A stretch of 59,470 bases of DNA from a bacterium (GTDB lineage Bacteria; Electryoneota; RPQS01), in contig JAHJDG010000127.1 in the NCBI GenBank assembly GCA_018812265.1, positions 1 to 59,470 of the forward strand, in the 5' to 3' direction. Below the pieces are notes generated by a model. The model searched no databases. It was not told where the DNA came from and was given only the letters and a program-made list of their open reading frames with translations. Shown in pieces: positions 15,387-25,762 of this stretch. A program made the position numbers and the translations under genes. Numbering within the stretch: position 1 is the first letter of the stretch; every line of letters starts with the position of its first letter.

Positions 15387-16814
15387 CTATGCGTCAAGTA
15401 TCTCTCTAAGCAATCCGTTTACAATCTTAGGATTGGCCGATCCCTTGGTGACTTTCATGGCCTCACCCATGAAGAATCCGAGCAGGTTTTTCTTGCCGGA
15501 CTTGTATCGTTTCACTTCCTCAGGATGTCCGGCCAGAATCTGCTCCACAATCCGTCGCAGCTCATCGGTGTCCGTCGTTTGCGCAAGGCCCTCGCCTTCG
15601 ATGATTTCCCGAGCACTGCGACCGTCCTCGAGCATTTTCCAGAATACGTCCTTGGCGGCGGAAAGCGATACGATATCCGCCTGCACCGCTTGGATCAGTT
15701 CCGCCAACGCTGGCGGAGGAAGCGGGAACTCCCTCATCCCCCAGCCCCGTTCGGAGAGTGCGCGTCTCACTTCTCCCTGCATCCATGCCGCCGCTGATCG
15801 CGGATCAATTCCCCGGTGTATCAGCGTCTCAAAGTAGTCTCCCAAACCGCGATCTGACGCCAGCACGGATACCGCTTCCTCATGAAGCTTCAATTCCTCA
15901 CGGTACCGACGGCGACGCGCATCGGGCAGTTCGGGAAGTTGCCGTCGAATCCGCGCCAATTCCTCCTCCGACACCGCAACCTCGACGAGATCCGGCTCGG
16001 GGAAATACCGGTAATCATCCGATCCCTCCTTGCGGCGCATGGGACGAATCTCCTCCAGAGTTTCATCCCACAGTAGGGTCTGACGAATCACCGTTCCGGT
16101 GGAAGTATACAGTTGAATCTGGCGTTCCCGCTCGCTGCGAATTGCCCGCTCAACGGCACGAATGGAATTCAGATTCTTGATCTCCGTGCGCTCGTTTAGG
16201 GATTCCTGGTCCGATGGGCGTACGGAGATGTTCACGTCGCAACGCAGCGATCCCCGCTCCATGTTGCCGTCACAAACGCCGACGAAGCGCAATAGCCCAC
16301 GAATCGTTCCGACGAAGGCGCCTGCCTCAAGTTCCGTGCGGAAATCCGGTTCGGTGACAATCTCCACCAGGGGAACACCGCAGCGGTTCATGTCCACGAT
16401 AGTGGAGCCGTCATCCTGATGAAGAGACTTCCCGGCATCCTCCTCGATGTGGGCGCGGGTGATGCGAATCCGCTTGGTTCCCCACTCCCCCTCGATATCC
16501 ACCCATCCGCCGGTGCTGAACGGCTCGTCGTACTGTGAAATCTGATAGCCCTTGGGAAGATCAGGATAGAAATAATTCTTACGGTCGAATTTGCTGCGCG
16601 GATGAACTGTCGCGTTGAGAGCAAGAGCCAACAGTGCCGCTTGTTCCACTACGTTTCGATTCAGAACCGGTAAGGCTCCCGGCATTCCGAGACAAGTGGG
16701 ACAAGCCAACGTATTGGGCGATTCTCCGTAGCGATTCGGACAGCGGCAGAACGCCTTGGTCTCCGTCAGCAGTTGCGCATGAATCTCCAAACCGACAATC
16801 AGTTCGTAGTTCAC
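15387..16814 (-). CDS. gatB: Asp/Glu-tRNA amidotransferase subunit B
   Basis: GLEIHAQL, FDRKNYFYPDLPKGYQISQ, HIEEDAGK, RCDVNIS, EIKNLNS, YRYFPEPDL. Confidence 0.97.
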   Translation of the reverse strand: MNYELIVGLEIHAQLLTETKAFCRCPNRYGESPNTLACPTCLGMPGALPVLNRNVVEQAALLALALNATVHPRSKFDRKNYFYPDLPKGYQISQYDEPFSTGGWVDIEGEWGTKRIRITRAHIEEDAGKSLHQDDGSTIVDMNRCGVPLVEIVTEPDFRTELEAGAFVGTIRGLLRFVGVCDGNMERGSLRCDVNISVRPSDQESLNERTEIKNLNSIRAVERAIRSERERQIQLYTSTGTVIRQTLLWDETLEEIRPMRRKEGSDDYRYFPEPDLVEVAVSEEELARIRRQLPELPDARRRRYREELKLHEEAVSVLASDRGLGDYFETLIHRGIDPRSAAAWMQGEVRRALSERGWGMREFPLPPPALAELIQAVQADIVSLSAAKDVFWKMLEDGRSAREIIEGEGLAQTTDTDELRRIVEQILAGHPEEVKRYKSGKKNLLGFFMGEAMKVTKGSANPKIVNGLLREILDA

Positions 16815-18232
16815 GACGCAGCCTCAGCCTGTATTTTTTCAACTTCTTTCCCCAACTGAAGGAGAAGCGTTTCCGAGAAATGAGGTCCCATGATCTGCAG
16901 TCCGATGGGCAAACCCGAAGCATCCTTCCCTACGGGAACCGATATCGCGGGAATACCCGCCAGATTCGCCGGAACCGTATACACGTCGGAGAGATACATG
17001 GCCAACGGATCGTCGAGTTTCTCGCCGATCCGGAATGACGTCGTCGGGCTGGTGGGTGTGACGATTACGTCCACCTCGTCAAAGGCTCGCTGAAAGTCTT
17101 CCAGGATCCGTCGGCGGACCTGCTGGGCCTTCCGATAGTACGCATCGAAGTATCCGGCGGACAAGACAAACGTCCCCATCATGATTCGCCGCCGAACCTC
17201 GGGACCGAATCCTTCTCCCCGAGTCAACTCATAGACTTCGGCGAGTTCCTCCGCCTTTTCGTGCCGCCAGCCGTAGCGGGCACCATCGTAGCGCGCGAGA
17301 TTCGAGCTGGCCTCGGCCGTCGCCAGGATATAGTAGACGGGAATTGCATAGCGGGTATGGGGAAGCGAGATCGCCCGCACCGCATGCCCTCGATCTTTCA
17401 ACGAATGGATAGCGGATTCCACCGTGTTTCGAACGTCGGACGAAATCCCCTCGACGAAGTACTCGGATGGAACGCCCATTCGCAGCGAACGATTCAACGG
17501 CGGCAGACCGCCATTGCATTCGGGCGGAGGAACATGCGCGCTGCTCGAATCTCTTGCGTCCACTCCCGCCATCACACAAAGAAGATTAAACAGTCCTTCG
17601 CAGGAGATGGTCAACGCACCGATTTGATCGAGCGACGATCCATAGGCCACCAAACCGTAGCGTGACACTCGGCCATAGGTGGGTTTCAGCCCGGCCACGC
17701 CGCAGAACGAGGCCGGCAGACGAACACTCCCTCCCGTATCGCTACCGAGAGCCGCATGCACAACGCCCGAGGCGACGGCCACGGCGCTCCCGCCCGAGGA
17801 ACCGCCGGCCACGCGCTCGGTATCCAGCGGATTGCGAACGGCGCCGAAGATCGTGTTCTCGGACGAAGAACCCATCCCGAATTCGTCCAAGTTTGTTTTC
17901 CCGATAACGATCGCGCCCGCCTCCTCCAGTCTTTGTACGGCCGTTGCCGAAAAGCGACTCTCGAAATTCTCCAGCATTCGCGACGCGCAAGTAAGACGCA
18001 CGCCCTCGATGGCGATGTTGTCTTTCACGGCAAGAATCCATCCCCCGAGCGGCGGTGATTGTCCGCTGCGAAAAGCGTCACGGACATTGAGCGCAGCGCG
18101 GCGGGCGCGTTCCCGCATAATCGTCACGAACGCCCGCAAGGATTCCTTCTCATGCGCCAGCGATAATGCTCGCTCAACCGCCTCAGGAATCTGATTGGGG
18201 TGGCTCTGGAGATACTCTGGGCTGGGCAGCAT
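16811..18232 (-). CDS. gatA: Asp/Glu-tRNA amidotransferase subunit A
   Basis: Amidase signature [33 protein letters not shown]; start placed at MLPSP (18232). Confidence 0.95.
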
Positions 18233-18470
18233 CGTGAGGTTGTACGGTAACCGAAGTGCGTTCGCTTTCGGTGGATGACGTGGAACTCGGGTGGATCGGC
18301 GGTTTGTCTCCGCCGGCGTTTTCGACTCCCGCCCGAACCTCGTACATTGCCTGACGAAACATGGCGAGGCTCCTGCCGAAAGCGCGGGCGGCATCGGGAA
18401 GACGCTGGCCACCGAACAGCAGCAGAATCACCAACGCGACAATCAGCAGCTCCGACGCACCGATATTCAT
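18183..18470 (-). CDS. tatA: Twin-arginine translocase TatA/TatE subunit
   Basis: [25 protein letters not shown]: TM helix, FG hinge, amphipathic helix; ATGA overlap with the purQ stop. Confidence 0.85.
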
Positions 18471-19210
18471 GAATGTACCGAAGGAGAAATCGCAGCCGGC
18501 GACGGATTCGATCGCGGGGATCGCCGGATGTGACAAGCCATCGAGTGAAAGACAGCCGCACCGTCCGTAAGTCCGACCAGCGGATCGCAGGCCCGCTCGG
18601 GATGCGGCATCAGCCCAAGAACGTTACCTTCTTCGTTCACGATTCCGGCGATTCCGCGCGTGCTTCCGTTGGGATTGCCGTCGGGAACGTCGGGCCGGAC
18701 CGGGCCGGAATAGCGGAAGACGATACGTCCTTCGGACTCGAGGGCTTCAATCGTTGCGGGATCCGCCACGTAGCAGCCTTCGGCGTGAGCAATGGGAATC
18801 CGCAGTGTCTGTCCCAGTGAATACTCGGACGTGAATGCCGTACCGTTGTTCTCCACGCACAGCGAGACCACTCGCGACACAAACTTCAGCGAACGATTCC
18901 GAATCAAGGCTCCGGGAAGCAGACCCGCTTCACAAAGAATCTGGAATCCGTTGCAAATACCGATGACCAATCCACCGTGGCGGGCAAAGCGGCGGACATC
19001 GTCCATGATCGGGGACAGCTTGGCCAATGCGCCGGCCCGAAGGTAATCGCCATAGGAAAATCCACCGGGAATCACCACCGCGTCACATGGATCCAACATA
19101 CGTTCCTTATGGAACACGTTTCGCACTTCATAGCCAAGAACGCGACCGATCGAATCCAGCGCGTCGTGATCGCAATTTGAACCCGGAAACGTGATCACCG
19201 CACAGATCAC
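18467..19210 (-). CDS. purQ: FGAM synthase glutaminase subunit
   Basis: [32 protein letters not shown]. Confidence 0.96.
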
Positions 19211-20864: not shown

Positions 20865-21599
20865 CTACATCGCACGGGTAAGCCGATCATGCAATTCGCG
20901 GTAGGTCTTCTCGATTCCGGACAAATCCTGAAGATAGCGATCTTTGTCGAGGCGGCGATTCTTTCGTTTGTCCCAGATTCGGCACGTATCCGGTGAGATT
21001 TCGTCGCCGATGCAAACATGATCGTTGACGACTCCAAACTCGAGACTGAATTGCGCCAGTGACAGACCGCGACGGTCGAAGAGCGATTTCAGAATCGCAT
21101 TCGCTTTGGATGCCATGCGACAGATGGCTCGCACATCATCCATCTTTGCATATCCCAGAGCGAGTGCATGCGTCTCATTGATCTGCGGATTGCCCAGCTT
21201 GCGGTCCTTGAGATAATATTCTACGATGGGAAAGTCAAGGGACTGTCCATCTTCGAGCGCAAACTGCTCTGAGAGCGGTGGAGCCGCAATATTATGAACC
21301 ACCACTTCAATGGAAATCATTTTCAGTCGGCGAACCAACAGTTCGCCGTCGGAAAGCTGCTCGACAAAGTGAGTTGGCACGTGATAGTTTTCGAGGTACT
21401 GCAGCAGGAATCCGGAAATCGAGGCATTGACACTGCCCTTTCCCGACACCCGCGCTTTCTTGGATCCGCCCCAATCGAGGAAGTCATCCTTGAACTCGAG
21501 GATCGCAAGGTTGTCGCGGTCCGTCGCATACAAGCGCTTCGTACGACCTTCAAACAACAACTCGCGCTTTTCCAAGTTCGCCCTTTCCGTTTCAATCAC
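20865..21599 (-). CDS. purC: SAICAR synthetase-like protein with several degenerate active-site motifs
   Basis: ELLFEGRTKRLY, FKDD, GKG, LEFG, DEISPDTCRIWD, LDKD; directly after purB. The fold call is secure, activity is not (see findings). Confidence 0.8.
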   Translation of the reverse strand: MIETERANLEKRELLFEGRTKRLYATDRDNLAILEFKDDFLDWGGSKKARVSGKGSVNASISGFLLQYLENYHVPTHFVEQLSDGELLVRRLKMISIEVVVHNIAAPPLSEQFALEDGQSLDFPIVEYYLKDRKLGNPQINETHALALGYAKMDDVRAICRMASKANAILKSLFDRRGLSLAQFSLEFGVVNDHVCIGDEISPDTCRIWDKRKNRRLDKDRYLQDLSGIEKTYRELHDRLTRAM

Positions 21600-21602
21600 G
21601 TA

Positions 21603-22904
21603 TCAGTCTTCGAGAATATCCAACCGACGCAGAACCTTCTCCGCCATGTCGTATCGCGGTTCAACTCGAACCAGCTCCCCCATACGCTCGGCACCGAGAG
21701 CCTCCCGGACTTCCGAATCGTTCAGCAACTCGTCGAGGAATTTCGTCTTCGTGTCGAGCACTTTGTGGGCGGCCGCCTGCACGTGCGAGTAGGCCCGTTC
21801 GCGCGTCCATCCGGTCTCCGTCAACGCCAAGAGCACGCGTTCCGATGCCAGAAGCCCGTGCGTCATGTCAAGATTCTCCTGCATGCGCTCCGGGCGTACA
21901 TCCAAGCCGTCCAAGACCCGAATCAGAATATGCAGCATGTAGTCGAGAGCGATACAGGCATCCGGAAAAACTACTCGCTCAGCCGAGGAGTGCGAAATGT
22001 CTCGTTCGTGCCACAGCGATACGTTTTCCAGTCCCACCATCGCGTAGCCGCGCAGCAGTCGCGCCATCCCGCACAATCGCTCGCAGAGAATCGGATTTCG
22101 CTTGTGGGGCATCGCCGAAGAACCCTTCTGCTTCTTCCCGAACGGCTCGAAGGCTTCAGCAACCTCGGTACGCTGCAGGTGGCGCACTTCAGTGGCGATT
22201 CGCTCCACGGTGGACGCGATCAGCGCAAGCAAACTCAGAAACTCGGCATGACGTTCACGAGCCACGATCTGAGTGGAGATCGGTGCAGCGCCCAATCCTA
22301 GGCGTTTCATCACCGCCTCTTCCAGCTCGGTATCGGTATGGGCATAGTTCCCGACGGCGCCGGAGAGCTTTCCAACCAGCACTCGTTCCAACGTCTGCCA
22401 CATGCGCGTCTCGTGCCGCGCAAATTCATCTTCCCAAAGCGCGAACTTGAGGCCGAACACCGTCGGTTCCGCATGGATGCCGTGCGTTCGACCCACCGTC
22501 GGAGTGTGACGGAATTCGCGGGCTCGCCGCGTCAAGATCAACCGAATCGCCGCCATATCATCGAGCAGCAACGCCGCCGCATCCTTAATCTGCAGCGCGA
22601 AGGCGGTATCGAGAACGTCGGACGACGTCAGTCCTTGATGGATGTATCGCGAGTTCGGCCCCACGTACCGTGCGATCACCGTCAGAAACGCGATGACGTC
22701 ATGCTGGACGTCGGCTTCGACTTCGGCGATCTCATCGGGCGAGAACCGCGCCGTGTTTCGGATGTGAGCGCAAACATCGGCGGGAATGCCACTGCGCTCC
22801 GCCCTTGCTTCGAGAACGGCAAGCTCAACTTTCCACCAAGCCTCGAAACGGGCTTGATCCGTCCATAGTCGAGCCATCGGTTCACGGGAGTATCGAGTGA
22901 TCAT
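21603..22904 (-). CDS. purB: Adenylosuccinate lyase
   Basis: MITRYSREPM, HDVIAF, GRTHGIHAEPT, signature SSAMPHKRNP. Confidence 0.96.
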   Translation of the reverse strand: MITRYSREPMARLWTDQARFEAWWKVELAVLEARAERSGIPADVCAHIRNTARFSPDEIAEVEADVQHDVIAFLTVIARYVGPNSRYIHQGLTSSDVLDTAFALQIKDAAALLLDDMAAIRLILTRRAREFRHTPTVGRTHGIHAEPTVFGLKFALWEDEFARHETRMWQTLERVLVGKLSGAVGNYAHTDTELEEAVMKRLGLGAAPISTQIVARERHAEFLSLLALIASTVERIATEVRHLQRTEVAEAFEPFGKKQKGSSAMPHKRNPILCERLCGMARLLRGYAMVGLENVSLWHERDISHSSAERVVFPDACIALDYMLHILIRVLDGLDVRPERMQENLDMTHGLLASERVLLALTETGWTRERAYSHVQAAAHKVLDTKTKFLDELLNDSEVREALGAERMGELVRVEPRYDMAEKVLRRLDILED

Positions 22905-24178
22905 CGTTGCGCCTCGGATTCGTCCGGCGGGAGCGGTGCCAATGTCACCTTCACTTCATAAACCTTTTGCTTCCGATAGATCTTGATGATCAGCGTGTCA
23001 CCAACCCGCAAATCTGTGCTGCGCAGGATCTCCTTGGCCGCGCGGGCCGAATCCACCGGACGTCCGGCGATCTCGACAATCACATCTTCGATGTGGATTC
23101 CGGCCTCGGCCGCCGGACTACCCGGCTCGACGCCCGTCACTTCCGCGCCATGCGGTTGATCCAAACCGTGGATGCGGGCTCGCGTCCACGTCAGATCGCG
23201 AGCGCGAATGCCGATCCAATAGTTGCGGTTAACTCCGCCCTTGAGAAGATCGTCAATCGCCGCCGAAATCCGGTTGGAGGGAATCGCAAACCCGATTCCC
23301 ACCGATCCGCCGGACTCCGAAAAGATCAGGGTGGTCATGCCGACGGCTACTCCTTCGGCATTGAGCAGCGGACCGCCCGAGTTGCCGCGATTGATCGCCG
23401 CGTCCGTCTGAATCATCTCGGAGTAGATTCGGCCGTCAATCTCGCTCTTGAAGTCGCGTCCCAGTGCCGATATCACTCCCACCGACACCGACGGTTGATC
23501 GTTCACGTTGAACAGTCCGTACGGATTTCCCAGGGCGATCACCCACTCTCCGACAATACTCTCATCACTATTCCCGAGCGGGATCACCGGCAGGTCTTGC
23601 GCGTCAATTTTGAGCAAGGCCATATCGAGCAGCGGGTCCGTTCCCACCACCTTCGTTACGTATCGCTGACGAGAAGTGGTCGTAACCACCACCTCCGTGG
23701 CATTCCGCACGACGTGTTCATTGGTAACGATGTAACCGTCGGAACTGATGAGGAATCCGGATCCCAGGTTCTCTACGCGACGCTTGATCGTGCGCGGCCA
23801 CATTCGTTCATCGAACAGCATCCAACTCAAGGGATCGGAAGGCAACCAGGGATTACGAACCTCCCGCACTTGAACGACGTTGATACCCACTACCGCATCG
23901 GACGTCCGGGCAATGGCGCGAGTGATGGCATTCGTTCGATGGTCGGCGATTTCTTCCTGAAGAAGAACTCGACGGTCGAACTCCTCCGGGGAAAGCGAAG
24001 GAATAGCCATTTCCGAGTCAGCCCTCTGCGACGCGGACTGCTCCGAGGCGATATCCGTATGCGTCATCGCCTTGAGCGATTCGATGTCCCGCTCTAAATC
24101 TCGATTGCGGTTGAACTGGTAAATAACCAGCAGTCCGGCAATCAGACCGACGATGAAAAAATTAAGGAACTTCCACAT
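22901..24178 (-). CDS. HtrA/DegP-family S1C serine protease with one PDZ domain
   Basis: N-terminal TM helix; GSGFLIS, TNEHVV, IQTDAAINRGNSGGP; C-terminal PDZ. Confidence 0.92.
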   Translation of the reverse strand: MWKFLNFFIVGLIAGLLVIYQFNRNRDLERDIESLKAMTHTDIASEQSASQRADSEMAIPSLSPEEFDRRVLLQEEIADHRTNAITRAIARTSDAVVGINVVQVREVRNPWLPSDPLSWMLFDERMWPRTIKRRVENLGSGFLISSDGYIVTNEHVVRNATEVVVTTTSRQRYVTKVVGTDPLLDMALLKIDAQDLPVIPLGNSDESIVGEWVIALGNPYGLFNVNDQPSVSVGVISALGRDFKSEIDGRIYSEMIQTDAAINRGNSGGPLLNAEGVAVGMTTLIFSESGGSVGIGFAIPSNRISAAIDDLLKGGVNRNYWIGIRARDLTWTRARIHGLDQPHGAEVTGVEPGSPAAEAGIHIEDVIVEIAGRPVDSARAAKEILRSTDLRVGDTLIIKIYRKQKVYEVKVTLAPLPPDESEAQR

Positions 24179-24971
24179 AACTCCGCCACACCCTCTCCAG
24201 ACGGGCGCGGACCTCTTCCGACCATGATTCGTATCCCACGGCCATGAGGGTCAATCCGTGTGCGGGAGCCTTGGGTCCCGCTTGCCGGACGTCTTCGGCC
24301 AAGAGAATTCTCTCAATATCCTGCGGATCCCGGCGACCGCGACCCACCTCTACAAACGTTCCCACCAGTAGCCGAACCATCCCGTGAAGAAAGCGATTGG
24401 CTGCGATACGGAACTCGAGGTGTGGACCGTGTTCCCGCCATTCCGCGTGATGCACCGTGGAGAGATAGTGAAGCTCTTTCTCGCTTTCATGCGCGAACGA
24501 TCGGAAAACTCGCTCTCCGACGATCAAGCCGGCAGCACGCTGCATCGGGACCGGATCCAGTCGAAATGGACACCACCACGAATACGAGCGACCGACGGCC
24601 AAGGGACGAAGTGCAATCCGATAGCGATAGGCTCGCCACTGCGCGCTATAGCGCGCATGGAAACGATCGTCCGCGATCCGGGTATCGGTAATTCGCACAT
24701 CCGGCGGCAGGAGGGAGTTTAGCGCCTTCGTGATGACTTCCGGCGGGCGCTCTCGATGAACCGTGAAGTGTGCCACTTGACCGAGCGCATGAACTCCGGT
24801 ATCCGTTCGCCCCGCCGCCATCACAACCGTCGGTTCGCCGAAAAGTTGGAGAACGGCGTTCTGCAAACAACCCTGCACCGTCCGCACGTCCGGTTGAACC
24901 TGCCAGCCGGCGAAGTCGGCTCCATCGTATTCGAGGTTGAGCCGGTATCGGGTTACAGCTCGCGAATGCAT
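24162..24971 (-). CDS. truA: tRNA pseudouridine(38-40) synthase
   Basis: EYDGADFAGWQ, AGRTDTGVHA, FHARYSA, RFLHGMVR; start uncertain (ATG 24971 chosen). Confidence 0.93.
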   Translation of the reverse strand: MHSRAVTRYRLNLEYDGADFAGWQVQPDVRTVQGCLQNAVLQLFGEPTVVMAAGRTDTGVHALGQVAHFTVHRERPPEVITKALNSLLPPDVRITDTRIADDRFHARYSAQWRAYRYRIALRPLAVGRSYSWWCPFRLDPVPMQRAAGLIVGERVFRSFAHESEKELHYLSTVHHAEWREHGPHLEFRIAANRFLHGMVRLLVGTFVEVGRGRRDPQDIERILLAEDVRQAGPKAPAHGLTLMAVGYESWSEEVRARLERVWRSYVEVP

Positions 24972-24991
24972 GGCCGGGCCGTGCTCACCGA

Positions 24992-25762
24992 CTACATCCA
25001 CGGTGCAATGGCACAAGTCAATACAAATATAACTGTTACAATAAGTTCGGCAGGCATCACCGGATGAGTGTGAAGCGCCGTTCGGACAATTCGAGGATCG
25101 TAGCCGCGTGCCTCCAGAGCGAAAGTCACATGATCTGCCCGTCGGAAGGCGGTCATGAGAAGGGAAAACAGCACTGTACGGACCTGCCGCAGTCGCGCAA
25201 CTCTCCCCCCCATCCGGTCAAGTCCCCGCGCTGCATGGGCCAATCGGATACGACGATACTCCTGCTCGAGAAATGGCACAAATCTAAGGGCCAGCGTTAC
25301 CACTAGTTCGGTCTGGGTCAAGGCGGAACGGCCGAGCTTCATACGACCGAGAAGCCGACCCACAGCCTTCCCGTACTGCTGAGGTGAATGCAAGTCGAAT
25401 AGTACAACCGTAACCGAGAGAATAAAAGCCAAACGCAGAGTGAAAAACACCGCCGCAAGAATACTCTCGGACGTAATTCCAATTCGAGGAAATTCTGCTA
25501 AACCAACCGAATCATGGCCACTTAGAAAGACATGGAATAGTCCGGTCAGCAGCAGAAATGGCCATAGGCGAAGAACCCCCCGTGTCACATTCCATACCGA
25601 AACTCTCATTGTGACAATAGCCAGCAACCATATTCCGGCCAGAAGAGTAAGCCCCTCAGCCCGGCTTATCAGAACCAAGCTCACGAGGAAAGCGATCCCG
25701 CCTCCGAGAAGACATAATGGATGGGGAGCCCGGCGCCGTCGCTGAGTAACTTGTGAGTTCAT
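24992..25762 (-). CDS. ecfT: Energy-coupling factor transporter transmembrane component T (CbiQ/EcfT family)
   Basis: Multiple TM helices; ALRFVP and both cytoplasmic ARG coupling motifs (HAARG, LEARG); directly upstream of truA. Confidence 0.8.
   Translation of the reverse strand: MNSQVTQRRRRAPHPLCLLGGGIAFLVSLVLISRAEGLTLLAGIWLLAIVTMRVSVWNVTRGVLRLWPFLLLTGLFHVFLSGHDSVGLAEFPRIGITSESILAAVFFTLRLAFILSVTVVLFDLHSPQQYGKAVGRLLGRMKLGRSALTQTELVVTLALRFVPFLEQEYRRIRLAHAARGLDRMGGRVARLRQVRTVLFSLLMTAFRRADHVTFALEARGYDPRIVRTALHTHPVMPAELIVTVIFVLTCAIAPWM

What the first reader, a model, noticed from the sequence alone, without database searches (positions are those of the whole stretch)
20865..21599. PurC homolog with systematic loss of substrate-binding residues
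Seen versus canonical SAICAR synthetases: TAF becomes LDW, VVRN..AGS becomes VVHN..APP, GDP becomes GNP, DFKLEFG becomes QFSLEFG, and DKDxFR becomes DKDRYL. The nucleotide-side motifs (EGxxK, EFG, DEISPD..R) remain. Established: the lost Arg/Ser/Asp/Lys residues bind CAIR, Mg and aspartate. Inference: a pseudo-enzyme scaffold or a ligase with changed specificity, kept in frame between purB and psd.
Basis: partly seen in the sequence, partly recalled or inferred. Interest (0 to 1): 0.6.

Follow-up and report, generated by a model that had tools for sequence, protein, structure and literature searches.

The report
Dead PurC copy kept beside psd
This gene is the ancestral purine enzyme PurC of its operon, which lost its substrate and metal contacts once a second intact purC was present, yet has been kept under strong selection in many uncultured lineages, always next to phospholipid genes, so it probably now does a non-catalytic job.

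Summary
Window 20865-21599 (-) encodes a short-form PurC homologue. It folds like PurC (pLDDT 91.7, TM 0.92-0.96) but fails NCBI's PurC cut-off. It has replaced R94, S100, D175, D129, T33/A34 and R215 (E. coli numbering) and keeps K13, K123, E179 and D191.

The genome has a second, fully canonical long-form purC on contig C140 and an otherwise present purine pathway.

Synteny (ecfT-truA-htrA-purB-purC-psd-pssA-purS-purQ) is conserved in all nine families of the phylum. The degenerate gene is therefore the positional orthologue of the ancestral purC. It is degenerate only in the window's own order, where 27 of 30 genomes carry both copies.

It is not decaying: omega is 0.05-0.07 and ORFs are intact. 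The former substrate-side positions have become the most variable, while the ATP-side positions stay invariant.

A profile search found many further degenerate lineages (KSB1, Kryptonia, Bacteroidota MAGs). These nearly always have a canonical PurC elsewhere, and psd and/or pssA always follows directly.

Best reading: a PurC-derived pseudoenzyme that still binds nucleotide. Its role is unknown and may be tied to Psd/PssA. I found no description of it, and databases annotate it as PurC.

The parts
20865..21599 (-). Degenerate short-form PurC homologue (PurC'). 244 aa from GTG 21599; the probable true start is TTG 21575, giving 236 aa. Replaced sites: L41-D42-W43 (21471-21479), H102 (21294-21296), P107-P108 (21276-21281), N137 (21189-21191), Q183/S185 (21045-21053), L223 (20931-20933).
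21603..22904 (-). purB (adenylosuccinate lyase), directly upstream. Its stop lies 3 nt before the GTG and 27 nt before the TTG start of PurC'.
   Evidence: PF00206 + PF10397
20192..20839 (-). psd (phosphatidylserine decarboxylase), 25 nt downstream of PurC'. psd and/or pssA followed directly in every degenerate lineage whose downstream DNA was available.
   Evidence: PF02666
19443..20195 (-). pssA-type CDP-alcohol phosphatidyltransferase; overlaps the psd stop.
   Evidence: PF01066
19207..19446 (-). purS (FGAM synthase small subunit)
18467..19210 (-). purQ (FGAM synthase glutaminase subunit)
   Evidence: PF13507
22901..25762 (-). Upstream genes of the same conserved super-operon: htrA (22901-24178), truA (24162-25016), ecfT/CbiQ (24992-25762). 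A promoter-like site lies at 25809-25781, behind a terminator-like hairpin at 25865-25841.

Best explanation
The gene is the ancestral, operon-resident short-form purC of this phylum. In the common ancestor of the window's order, a second fully canonical long-form PurC (here on contig C140:11153-12037) was present and carries SAICAR synthesis.

Freed from that job, the operon copy lost the contacts for the CAIR phosphate and ribose (R94H, S100P, D175Q), for two of the three Mg ions (D129N; E90 is also lost in half of the family) and for aspartate/SAICAR (T33L, A34D, R215L). It can no longer make SAICAR in the canonical way (inferred).

It kept the PurC fold and the ATP/MgA half-site (K13, K123, E179, D191 are invariant). 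It has been held under purifying selection as strong as that on its enzyme neighbours. It is therefore a pseudoenzyme that most likely still binds a nucleotide and serves a non-catalytic (regulatory or scaffolding) role (inferred).

The same fate befell the operon copy in many other lineages, with different replacement PurCs, and in all of them psd and/or pssA follows the dead copy directly, even where purB, purS and purQ have left. The retained role is therefore probably an older second function of this operon-type PurC, possibly exerted on or with the Psd/PssA phospholipid module (speculative).
For: Second copy
- G000 has a second PF01259 gene. It is canonical at all key residues and passes two PurC equivalog models.
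- purF, purL, purM, purH, purE, purS, purQ and purB are present.

Orthology
- The same 9 to 11-gene synteny occurs in all nine families of the phylum.

Phyletic pattern
- 27 of 30 genomes of the own order carry degenerate short plus long form; the three exceptions are 56-88% complete.
- Six families carry only a canonical short form.
- Family f6 carries both copies, both canonical.
- The long-form tree for f1+f2 (98 support) mirrors the short-form tree, so both copies are native.

Loss of function
- Three of the four CAIR contacts reported as fully conserved, plus R215 and Mg ligand D129, are replaced (PMC3261824, PMC9376930).
- The 16 substrate-side positions have entropy 0.14 in canonical orthologues but 1.36 in f1 (P=0.0005) and 1.08 in f2 (P=0.0004). 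ATP-side positions have entropy 0.0.

Selection
- Omega is 0.05-0.07 in the three pairs with measurable dS. dN is at or below that of purB and the long purC.
- The rate relative to PurB is 1.28 (f1) against 0.53-0.63 for canonical short forms (f5, f6) and about 1.2 for the long form.
- All ORFs are intact except one frameshift in G062.

Fold
- pLDDT 91.7, TM 0.92-0.96 to solved short PurCs.

Generality
- 68 of the best 150 representatives have lost 3 or more key residues.
- 10 of 12 other genomes with a degenerate copy have a second PF01259 gene, against 1 of 9 genomes with a canonical copy. Seven of the nine second copies fetched (eight from degenerate-bearing genomes, one from G095) are canonical at all 16 sites and two more over the part aligned; they are long forms in some genomes and a different short type in others.
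- psd and/or pssA follows the degenerate gene in every lineage with downstream DNA, while purB or purS/purQ are absent from the locus in several.
- Residues specific to this operon type (R153, A160, R168, R169 on the long helix, and F28) stay invariant even in forms that lost 13 of 16 key residues and still fold as PurC.
Against: - No activity, binding or expression data exist. Loss of catalysis is inferred from residues only.
- The reaction needs substrate positioning and Mg rather than a catalytic side chain (PMC9376930), so weak residual activity cannot be ruled out.
- Some replaced positions are well conserved within family f1 (E175 in 18/20, N129 in 17/20, L215 and P125 in 16/20, Y/H94). 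This could mark a new ligand site rather than decay.
- One MAG (G087, 6.7 Mb, completeness unknown) has purM, purH, purB, purS and purQ, but only a degenerate PurC was found.
- The link to psd/pssA could be inherited gene order with no functional meaning. The canonical copies show the same adjacency, and psd is absent from the locus in some lineages.
- dS is saturated for most pairs, so omega rests on three pairs.
- The substrate-side position list was assembled partly after seeing the data.
Confidence: 0.6

Rival explanations
1. It is an ATP-dependent ligase or kinase with new substrates. The ATP/MgA half-site is kept because the protein still activates something with ATP, and the remodelled pocket (S11, S12, Y/H94, P125, N129, E175, L215 in family f1) binds a less anionic acceptor and/or another amine.
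For: - ATP-side residues are invariant in 25 genomes and about 40 metagenomic relatives.
- Several pocket replacements are conserved within f1.
- Selection is strong.
- There is precedent: SAICAR-synthetase homologues are core genes of the pentostatin, coformycin, adechlorin and pyrazomycin clusters in Actinomycetota (PMC13055916).
Against: - The pocket is the most variable part of the protein within f1 and f2, and it differs between f1, f2 and the other degenerate lineages.
- Mg ligands D129 and, in half of f1, E90 are gone. E90K pairs with K177E in one subclade.
- More degenerate relatives in the same operon slot have also lost E179 and D191, yet are retained.
- No biosynthetic cluster surrounds the gene.
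Confidence: 0.2
2. It is still a SAICAR synthetase: a divergent, perhaps low-activity or differently regulated isozyme that backs up the long form.
For: - Family f6 and G095 keep two apparently intact PurCs, so two isozymes can coexist.
- G087 shows only a degenerate copy beside purM and purH.
- Catalysis relies on Mg and positioning rather than on a catalytic side chain (PMC9376930).
Against: - R94, S100 and D175 are conserved in all archaeal PurCs surveyed (PMC3261824) and in all 38 canonical orthologues here, and they are replaced.
- Position 129 takes N, S, R, G, H or Y among relatives.
- The protein fails the PurC equivalog cut-off.
- The degenerate copy is the sole PurC only in incomplete genomes.
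Confidence: 0.08
3. It is a decaying relic with no function of its own. It is kept only because its reading frame or DNA is needed to express the downstream psd-pssA genes (polarity, coupling, internal signals).
For: - The gene lies inside a tightly packed operon with short or overlapping junctions.
- One relative (G062) has a frameshift.
Against: - Omega of 0.05-0.07 and dN at or below that of purB show selection on the amino-acid sequence.
- About 60 orthologues keep intact 236-238 aa ORFs across an order.
- The fold is predicted with high confidence even in the most degenerate forms.
- Bacterial deletion bias would have removed a useless 0.7 kb gene.
Confidence: 0.04

Closest known systems
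Short-form bacterial/archaeal SAICAR synthetase PurC (EC 6.3.2.6; PF01259, TIGR00081; e.g. PDB 2GQR/2GQS E. coli, 3NUA, 2YWV)
   Same: Homologous over the full length (35-40% identity, TM 0.92-0.96). Same operon slot as the canonical purC of sister families. Keeps K13, H69, K123, E179-F-G, D191-E, D196 and R199.
   Different: Lacks R94, S100, D175, D129, T33/A34 and R215. Scores below the equivalog cut-off. Coexists with a canonical PurC. The substrate half-site evolves freely.
Catalytically dead enzyme paralogues that persist as partners or regulators (e.g. the AdoMetDC prozyme of trypanosomes, PMC5201418; HisZ, the HisRS-like subunit of ATP-PRT, from my own knowledge)
   Same: An enzyme homologue that has lost catalytic or substrate residues, is under purifying selection, and sits beside an active homologue in the same genome.
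   Different: No partner has been identified here. The active homologue is a different PurC subtype (long form, or a second short type), not a recent duplicate. The conserved neighbours are phospholipid genes, not the active homologue.
SAICAR-synthetase homologues recruited into nucleoside-antibiotic clusters (adeA and the homologues in pentostatin, coformycin and pyrazomycin BGCs; PMC13055916)
   Same: PurC-family proteins that no longer serve primary purine synthesis.
   Different: Those sit in Actinomycetota biosynthetic clusters and are enzymes. This one sits in a housekeeping super-operon of FCB-type uncultured phyla, and its pocket is not refixed. Sequence relationship was not tested here.

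Membership tests
SAICAR synthetase PurC (EC 6.3.2.6) | PF01259 homology and PurC fold | tested here: met
   196.6 bits; PDB PurCs at E 1e-58 to 1e-33; AF2 pLDDT 91.7, TM 0.92-0.96
SAICAR synthetase PurC (EC 6.3.2.6) | Passes a curated PurC equivalog model (NCBIfam) | tested here: not met
   TIGR00081 163.6 bits against a cut-off of 189.9; the other PurC models score far below their cut-offs. The long-form copy passes.
SAICAR synthetase PurC (EC 6.3.2.6) | CAIR contacts R94, S100, D175, R199 (reported fully conserved, PMC3261824), plus R215 | tested here: not met
   H102, P108, Q183 and L223 replace R94, S100, D175 and R215; only R199 (R207) is kept
SAICAR synthetase PurC (EC 6.3.2.6) | Ligands of the second and third Mg ions (E90, D129; human E97/D137, PMC9376930) | tested here: not met
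   D129 is N137 in the window protein. E90 is kept here but is K/I/V/Q in half of family f1.
SAICAR synthetase PurC (EC 6.3.2.6) | Aspartate/SAICAR loop [ST]33-A34 and K211 | tested here: not met
   L41-D42-W43 replaces T-A-F. K211 is kept in the window protein but is R/Q/V/M/F in relatives.
SAICAR synthetase PurC (EC 6.3.2.6) | ATP/MgA site: G10-K11-A12-K13 loop, K123, E179, D191 | tested here: met
   G18, K21, K131, E187 and D199 are present and invariant in f1+f2; K11R and A12T are changed. Binding itself was not tested.
SAICAR synthetase PurC (EC 6.3.2.6) | Catalyses CAIR + Asp + ATP -> SAICAR | not testable with these tools
   Needs complementation or an enzyme assay
Pseudoenzyme (dead enzyme homologue retained by selection) | Loss of residues needed for the ancestral reaction | tested here: met
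   10 of 16 key positions replaced; the substrate-side positions are now the most variable
Pseudoenzyme (dead enzyme homologue retained by selection) | Purifying selection on the protein and intact ORFs across species | tested here: met
   Omega 0.05-0.07; dN at or below that of purB; about 60 intact orthologues
Pseudoenzyme (dead enzyme homologue retained by selection) | An active enzyme for the same step is present in the same genome | tested here: met
   Canonical long form on C140; both copies in 27 of 30 genomes of the order
Pseudoenzyme (dead enzyme homologue retained by selection) | Demonstrated lack of activity and a defined non-catalytic role | not testable with these tools
   Needs biochemistry, genetics and interaction mapping
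Nucleoside-antibiotic SAICAR-synthetase homologues (adeA / pentostatin / coformycin type) | Located in a nucleoside-antibiotic biosynthetic gene cluster | tested here: not met
   The neighbours are purB, psd, pssA, purS, purQ, htrA and truA

The most novel reading that the evidence does not exclude
The short PurC encoded in the FCB-type super-operon has a second, non-catalytic job on the adjacent phosphatidylserine synthase/decarboxylase module. One possibility is a nucleotide-sensing or membrane-docking subunit that acts through the operon-specific basic face of its long helix (R153, K157, R168, R169). That job, not purine synthesis, would be what keeps dozens of independently 'killed' copies alive. 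It would be an undescribed link between purine/ATP status and phosphatidylethanolamine synthesis.
Probability: 0.2. Interest if true: 0.8.

Novelty: new variant of a known kind. Interest (0 to 1): 0.62.

Why it matters
PurC is treated as a single-function housekeeping enzyme, and public pipelines (NCBI, JGI) label all of these proteins as SAICAR synthetase.

Here the operon-resident PurC has been replaced catalytically, by different PurC types in different lineages. It is nonetheless retained under strong selection across KSB1, Calditrichota-like, Kryptonia and Bacteroidota MAG lineages.

Three things follow:
- It points to a hidden second function of a core purine enzyme.
- It gives a natural series of increasingly 'dead' variants with which to find that function.
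- It warns that pathway reconstructions in these phyla should not count this gene as PurC.

It is also a clean example of gene displacement captured at three stages: one copy; two intact copies (family f6); and one intact plus one dead copy.

Tried and rejected
1. PurK replacement. G000 has a class-I-like PurE (SAHR motif) and no PurK. But PurK is absent from almost the whole phylum, including families with only a canonical PurC. There is no correlation, so the idea was dropped.

2. Fusion partners. The longer proteins among the best 150 representatives are canonical PurCs fused to PurH, PurF, PurB, PurS or RibB. No degenerate form is fused to anything.

3. dN/dS across the family. Synonymous sites are saturated in most pairs, and only three pairs gave a usable dS. 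I used dN relative to neighbouring genes and protein distances normalised to PurB instead.

4. One or two acquisitions of the long form. Outsiders fall between the f6 clade and the f1+f2 clade with only 85 support. This is unresolved.

5. A wide alignment of degenerate forms (A4) was too diverse for the genome scan, so I used four sequences (A5).

6. Finding the long-form locus of G087 by DNA similarity to its relative G090 returned only a dispersed palindromic repeat.

7. Literature searches for a PurC pseudoenzyme or a purC-psd-pssA link found nothing relevant. The E. coli PurC structure paper (PubMed 16687397) is not held, so residue roles come from PMC3261824 and PMC9376930. The careful tree did not finish; the quick tree was used.

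Full report
**1. What is there**

Window 20865-21599 (- strand) is an open frame of 244 codons starting at GTG. The likelier start is the TTG at 21575, which is preceded by GGAAAGGG. It gives the 236 residues that all relatives have.

The protein matches Pfam SAICAR_synt at 196.6 bits and solved short-form PurCs at E 1e-58 to 1e-33. It falls below NCBI's PurC equivalog cut-off (TIGR00081: 163.6 against 189.9). An AlphaFold2 model is confident (pLDDT 91.7). It superposes on short PurC structures at TM 0.92-0.96 and rmsd 1.3-1.9 Å.

**2. The substitutions**

Alignment with E. coli K-12 PurC has no internal gaps, so E. coli number = residue number minus 8.

Replaced positions:
- K11R, A12T
- T33L, A34D, F35W
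- R94H, S100P
- D125R, D129N
- D175Q, K177S
- R215L

Kept positions: G10, K13, H69, E90, N95, K123, E179-F-G, D191-E192, D196, R199, K211.

According to PMC3261824, S100, R94, R199 and D175 contact CAIR and are fully conserved in archaeal PurCs. R215 contacts CAIR, and E179 contacts ADP. According to PMC9376930, human E97 and D137 bridge two of the three Mg ions. By motif mapping these correspond to E. coli E90 and D129. In the same paper the G-K-x-K loop binds ATP, and T40-A41-G42-N43, K191, K228 and R232 line the SAICAR site.

**3. A second, intact purC**

The genome is 97.5% complete. It has a second PF01259 gene on contig C140. This is a 294-aa long form that passes NF010568 (405 against 251 bits) and TIGR00081 (231 against 190). 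It has canonical residues at 14 of the 16 key positions; position 13 is R and position 125 is T, and R13 is shared by all the long forms aligned.

purF, purL, purM, purH, purE, purS, purQ and purB are all present. The organism therefore looks like a purine prototroph that does not need the short copy.

**4. Evolutionary history**

Pfam scan of the phylum:
- Families f1 and f2 (the window's order) carry a long form (230-255 bits) plus a low-scoring short form (165-223 bits) in 27 of 30 genomes. The three exceptions are 56-88% complete.
- Family f6 carries both forms, and its short form scores as canonical.
- The other six families carry only a canonical short form (265-294 bits).

Synteny:
- I fetched 60 short-form loci.
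- The order ecfT-truA-htrA-purB-purC-psd-pssA-purS-purQ(-tatA-gatA) holds in all nine families.
- The degenerate gene is therefore the positional orthologue of the ancestral purC.

Motifs:
- All f1/f2 copies are degenerate, but not identically so.
- f1 has EGSSK, VV[HY]N, EF[STKE]LEFG and DRFL.
- f2 keeps EGKAK but has [GS]F[KHR][IV]EFG and variable residues at 199, 211 and 215.

Trees:
- In the short-form tree, f1+f2 form a clade (97 support) that is sister to f6 (94).
- The long forms of f1+f2 form a clade (98) with the same internal groupings, so both copies are native.
- Whether f6 obtained its long form in the same event is unresolved.

**5. Selection**

The gene is not decaying.
- dN within genera is 0.03-0.16. 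That is no higher than for purB (0.12-0.17) or the long purC (0.11-0.17).
- In the three pairs with unsaturated dS, omega is 0.05, 0.06 and 0.07.
- Normalised to PurB distances, the degenerate copy evolves at 1.28 (f1) and 1.57 (f2). Canonical short forms evolve at 0.53-0.63 in f5 and f6, and 1.11 in f4 on six pairs. The long form evolves at about 1.2 and PurQ at about 1.3.
- Constraint is therefore roughly halved, but it remains that of an ordinary enzyme gene.

The relaxation is local.
- The 16 substrate- and Mg-side positions have mean entropy 0.14 in canonical orthologues.
- In f1 they have 1.36 against a protein mean of 0.78 (P=0.0005). In f2 they have 1.08 against 0.52 (P=0.0004).
- The ATP-side positions have entropy 0.0 in both families.
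- The position list was partly fixed after seeing the data, which weakens this test somewhat.
- In one subclade E90K co-occurs with K177E. This looks like a charge swap filling the old site, but that is inference.

**6. The phenomenon is wider than this order**

Profile search:
- I searched a profile of the degenerate clade against 1.84 billion representatives. Of the best 150 hits, 68 have lost 3 or more of the 16 key residues.
- About 45 of these lie on long branches outside f1/f2. Some have also lost E179 and D191.
- Named members come from KSB1 and from Kryptonia (Ca. Chrysopegis, Ca. Thermokryptus).

Contexts:
- Kryptonia: purC'-psd-pssA-purS.
- P0253: purB-purC'-psd-pssA.
- P0356 and P0362: htrA-purC'-psd-pssA-tatA, with no purB, purS or purQ in the locus.

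Scan of species genomes:
- The scan gave 23 loci with the same super-operon. Thirteen of them are degenerate and nine canonical.
- Ten of the 12 distinct genomes with a degenerate copy have a second PF01259 gene, against 1 of 9 genomes with a canonical copy.
- Nine second copies were fetched, eight from degenerate-bearing genomes and one from G095. Seven are canonical at all 16 sites. Two were aligned only over the C-terminal seven sites, where they are canonical. One shows differences at positions 125 and 129 that may be an alignment effect. Three of the copies are long forms and three are a different short type, which argues for several independent displacements.

Adjacency:
- psd and/or pssA follows the degenerate gene in every lineage for which downstream DNA was available.
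- psd itself is missing in one KSB1 group, where pssA follows directly.

Fold and retained residues:
- The most degenerate form tested (P0356, 13 of 16 lost) still folds as PurC, with pLDDT 94.8 and TM 0.87-0.90.
- Residues specific to this operon type stay invariant through all stages of degeneration. They are R153, A160, R168 and R169 on the long helix, together with F28.

**7. Reading**

Shown:
- The gene is a displaced ancestral PurC.
- The substrate and Mg half-site has been lost.
- The fold and the ATP half-site are retained.
- Purifying selection is strong.
- The pattern recurs in other lineages.
- Adjacency to psd/pssA is constant.

Inferred:
- The protein no longer makes SAICAR.
- It still binds nucleotide.
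- It has a non-catalytic role.

Speculative:
- That role predates the loss of catalysis and concerns the Psd/PssA module.

**8. Caveats**

- G087 (6.7 Mb, completeness unknown) has purM and purH, but only a degenerate PurC was found.
- The statement that the L136 genome (G090) has a long-form second copy rests on an unpublished genome.
- There are no experimental data of any kind.

**9. Known or new**

Pseudoenzymes are a known kind, and PurC homologues with other roles exist in nucleoside-antibiotic clusters (PMC13055916). I found no description of a PurC-derived pseudoenzyme or of a purC-psd-pssA link. Public records name these proteins SAICAR synthetase.

The scan had already noted the super-operon on this window and in another genome, but not the degenerate PurC.

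Noticed in passing
G000 C121 (L104:1492-1950) and the whole phylum: PurE carries the class-I-like SAHR motif. A PurK (TIGR01161) is found only in family f7 and one f1 genome; the rest of the phylum appears to run a PurE without PurK.
   Followed up: partly
L105 (G062:C1:456678-459351), around 1522-1528: The degenerate PurC of one g6 species has a single frameshift between EF(182) and AGD(185). Both halves are 97-98% identical to orthologues, so this is a very recent break or an assembly error.
   Followed up: partly
Family f6 loci L027-L042 and L085-L097; G095 (L123, L148): These genomes keep two apparently intact PurCs (short in the operon, long elsewhere). In f6 only S100 of the short form drifts (to T/N). 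This looks like the intermediate stage of the displacement.
   Followed up: partly
L119, L122, L125, L126: In one KSB1-like group psd is missing from the operon, and pssA directly follows the degenerate PurC.
   Followed up: partly
L149:2878-2937 and more than 70 places in G087 (e.g. L150-L152): A palindromic element of about 55 bp is dispersed in more than 70 copies, matching on both strands. It is shared by two related large MAG genomes (one of them unpublished).
   Followed up: no
G000 C178:25640-26107 and C97:3-455: purH is split across two contig ends, so the assembly breaks inside the gene.
   Followed up: no
P0384 (MGP8330195.1): A strongly degenerate bacterial operon-type PurC is deposited in a MAG labelled Methanosarcinaceae archaeon. 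This is probably a binning error.
   Followed up: no
window 18183-18536 / 16811-18412: The tatA reading frame overlaps the start region of gatA at the end of the same operon. Pfam did not match the short TatA stretch at 1e-5.
   Followed up: no
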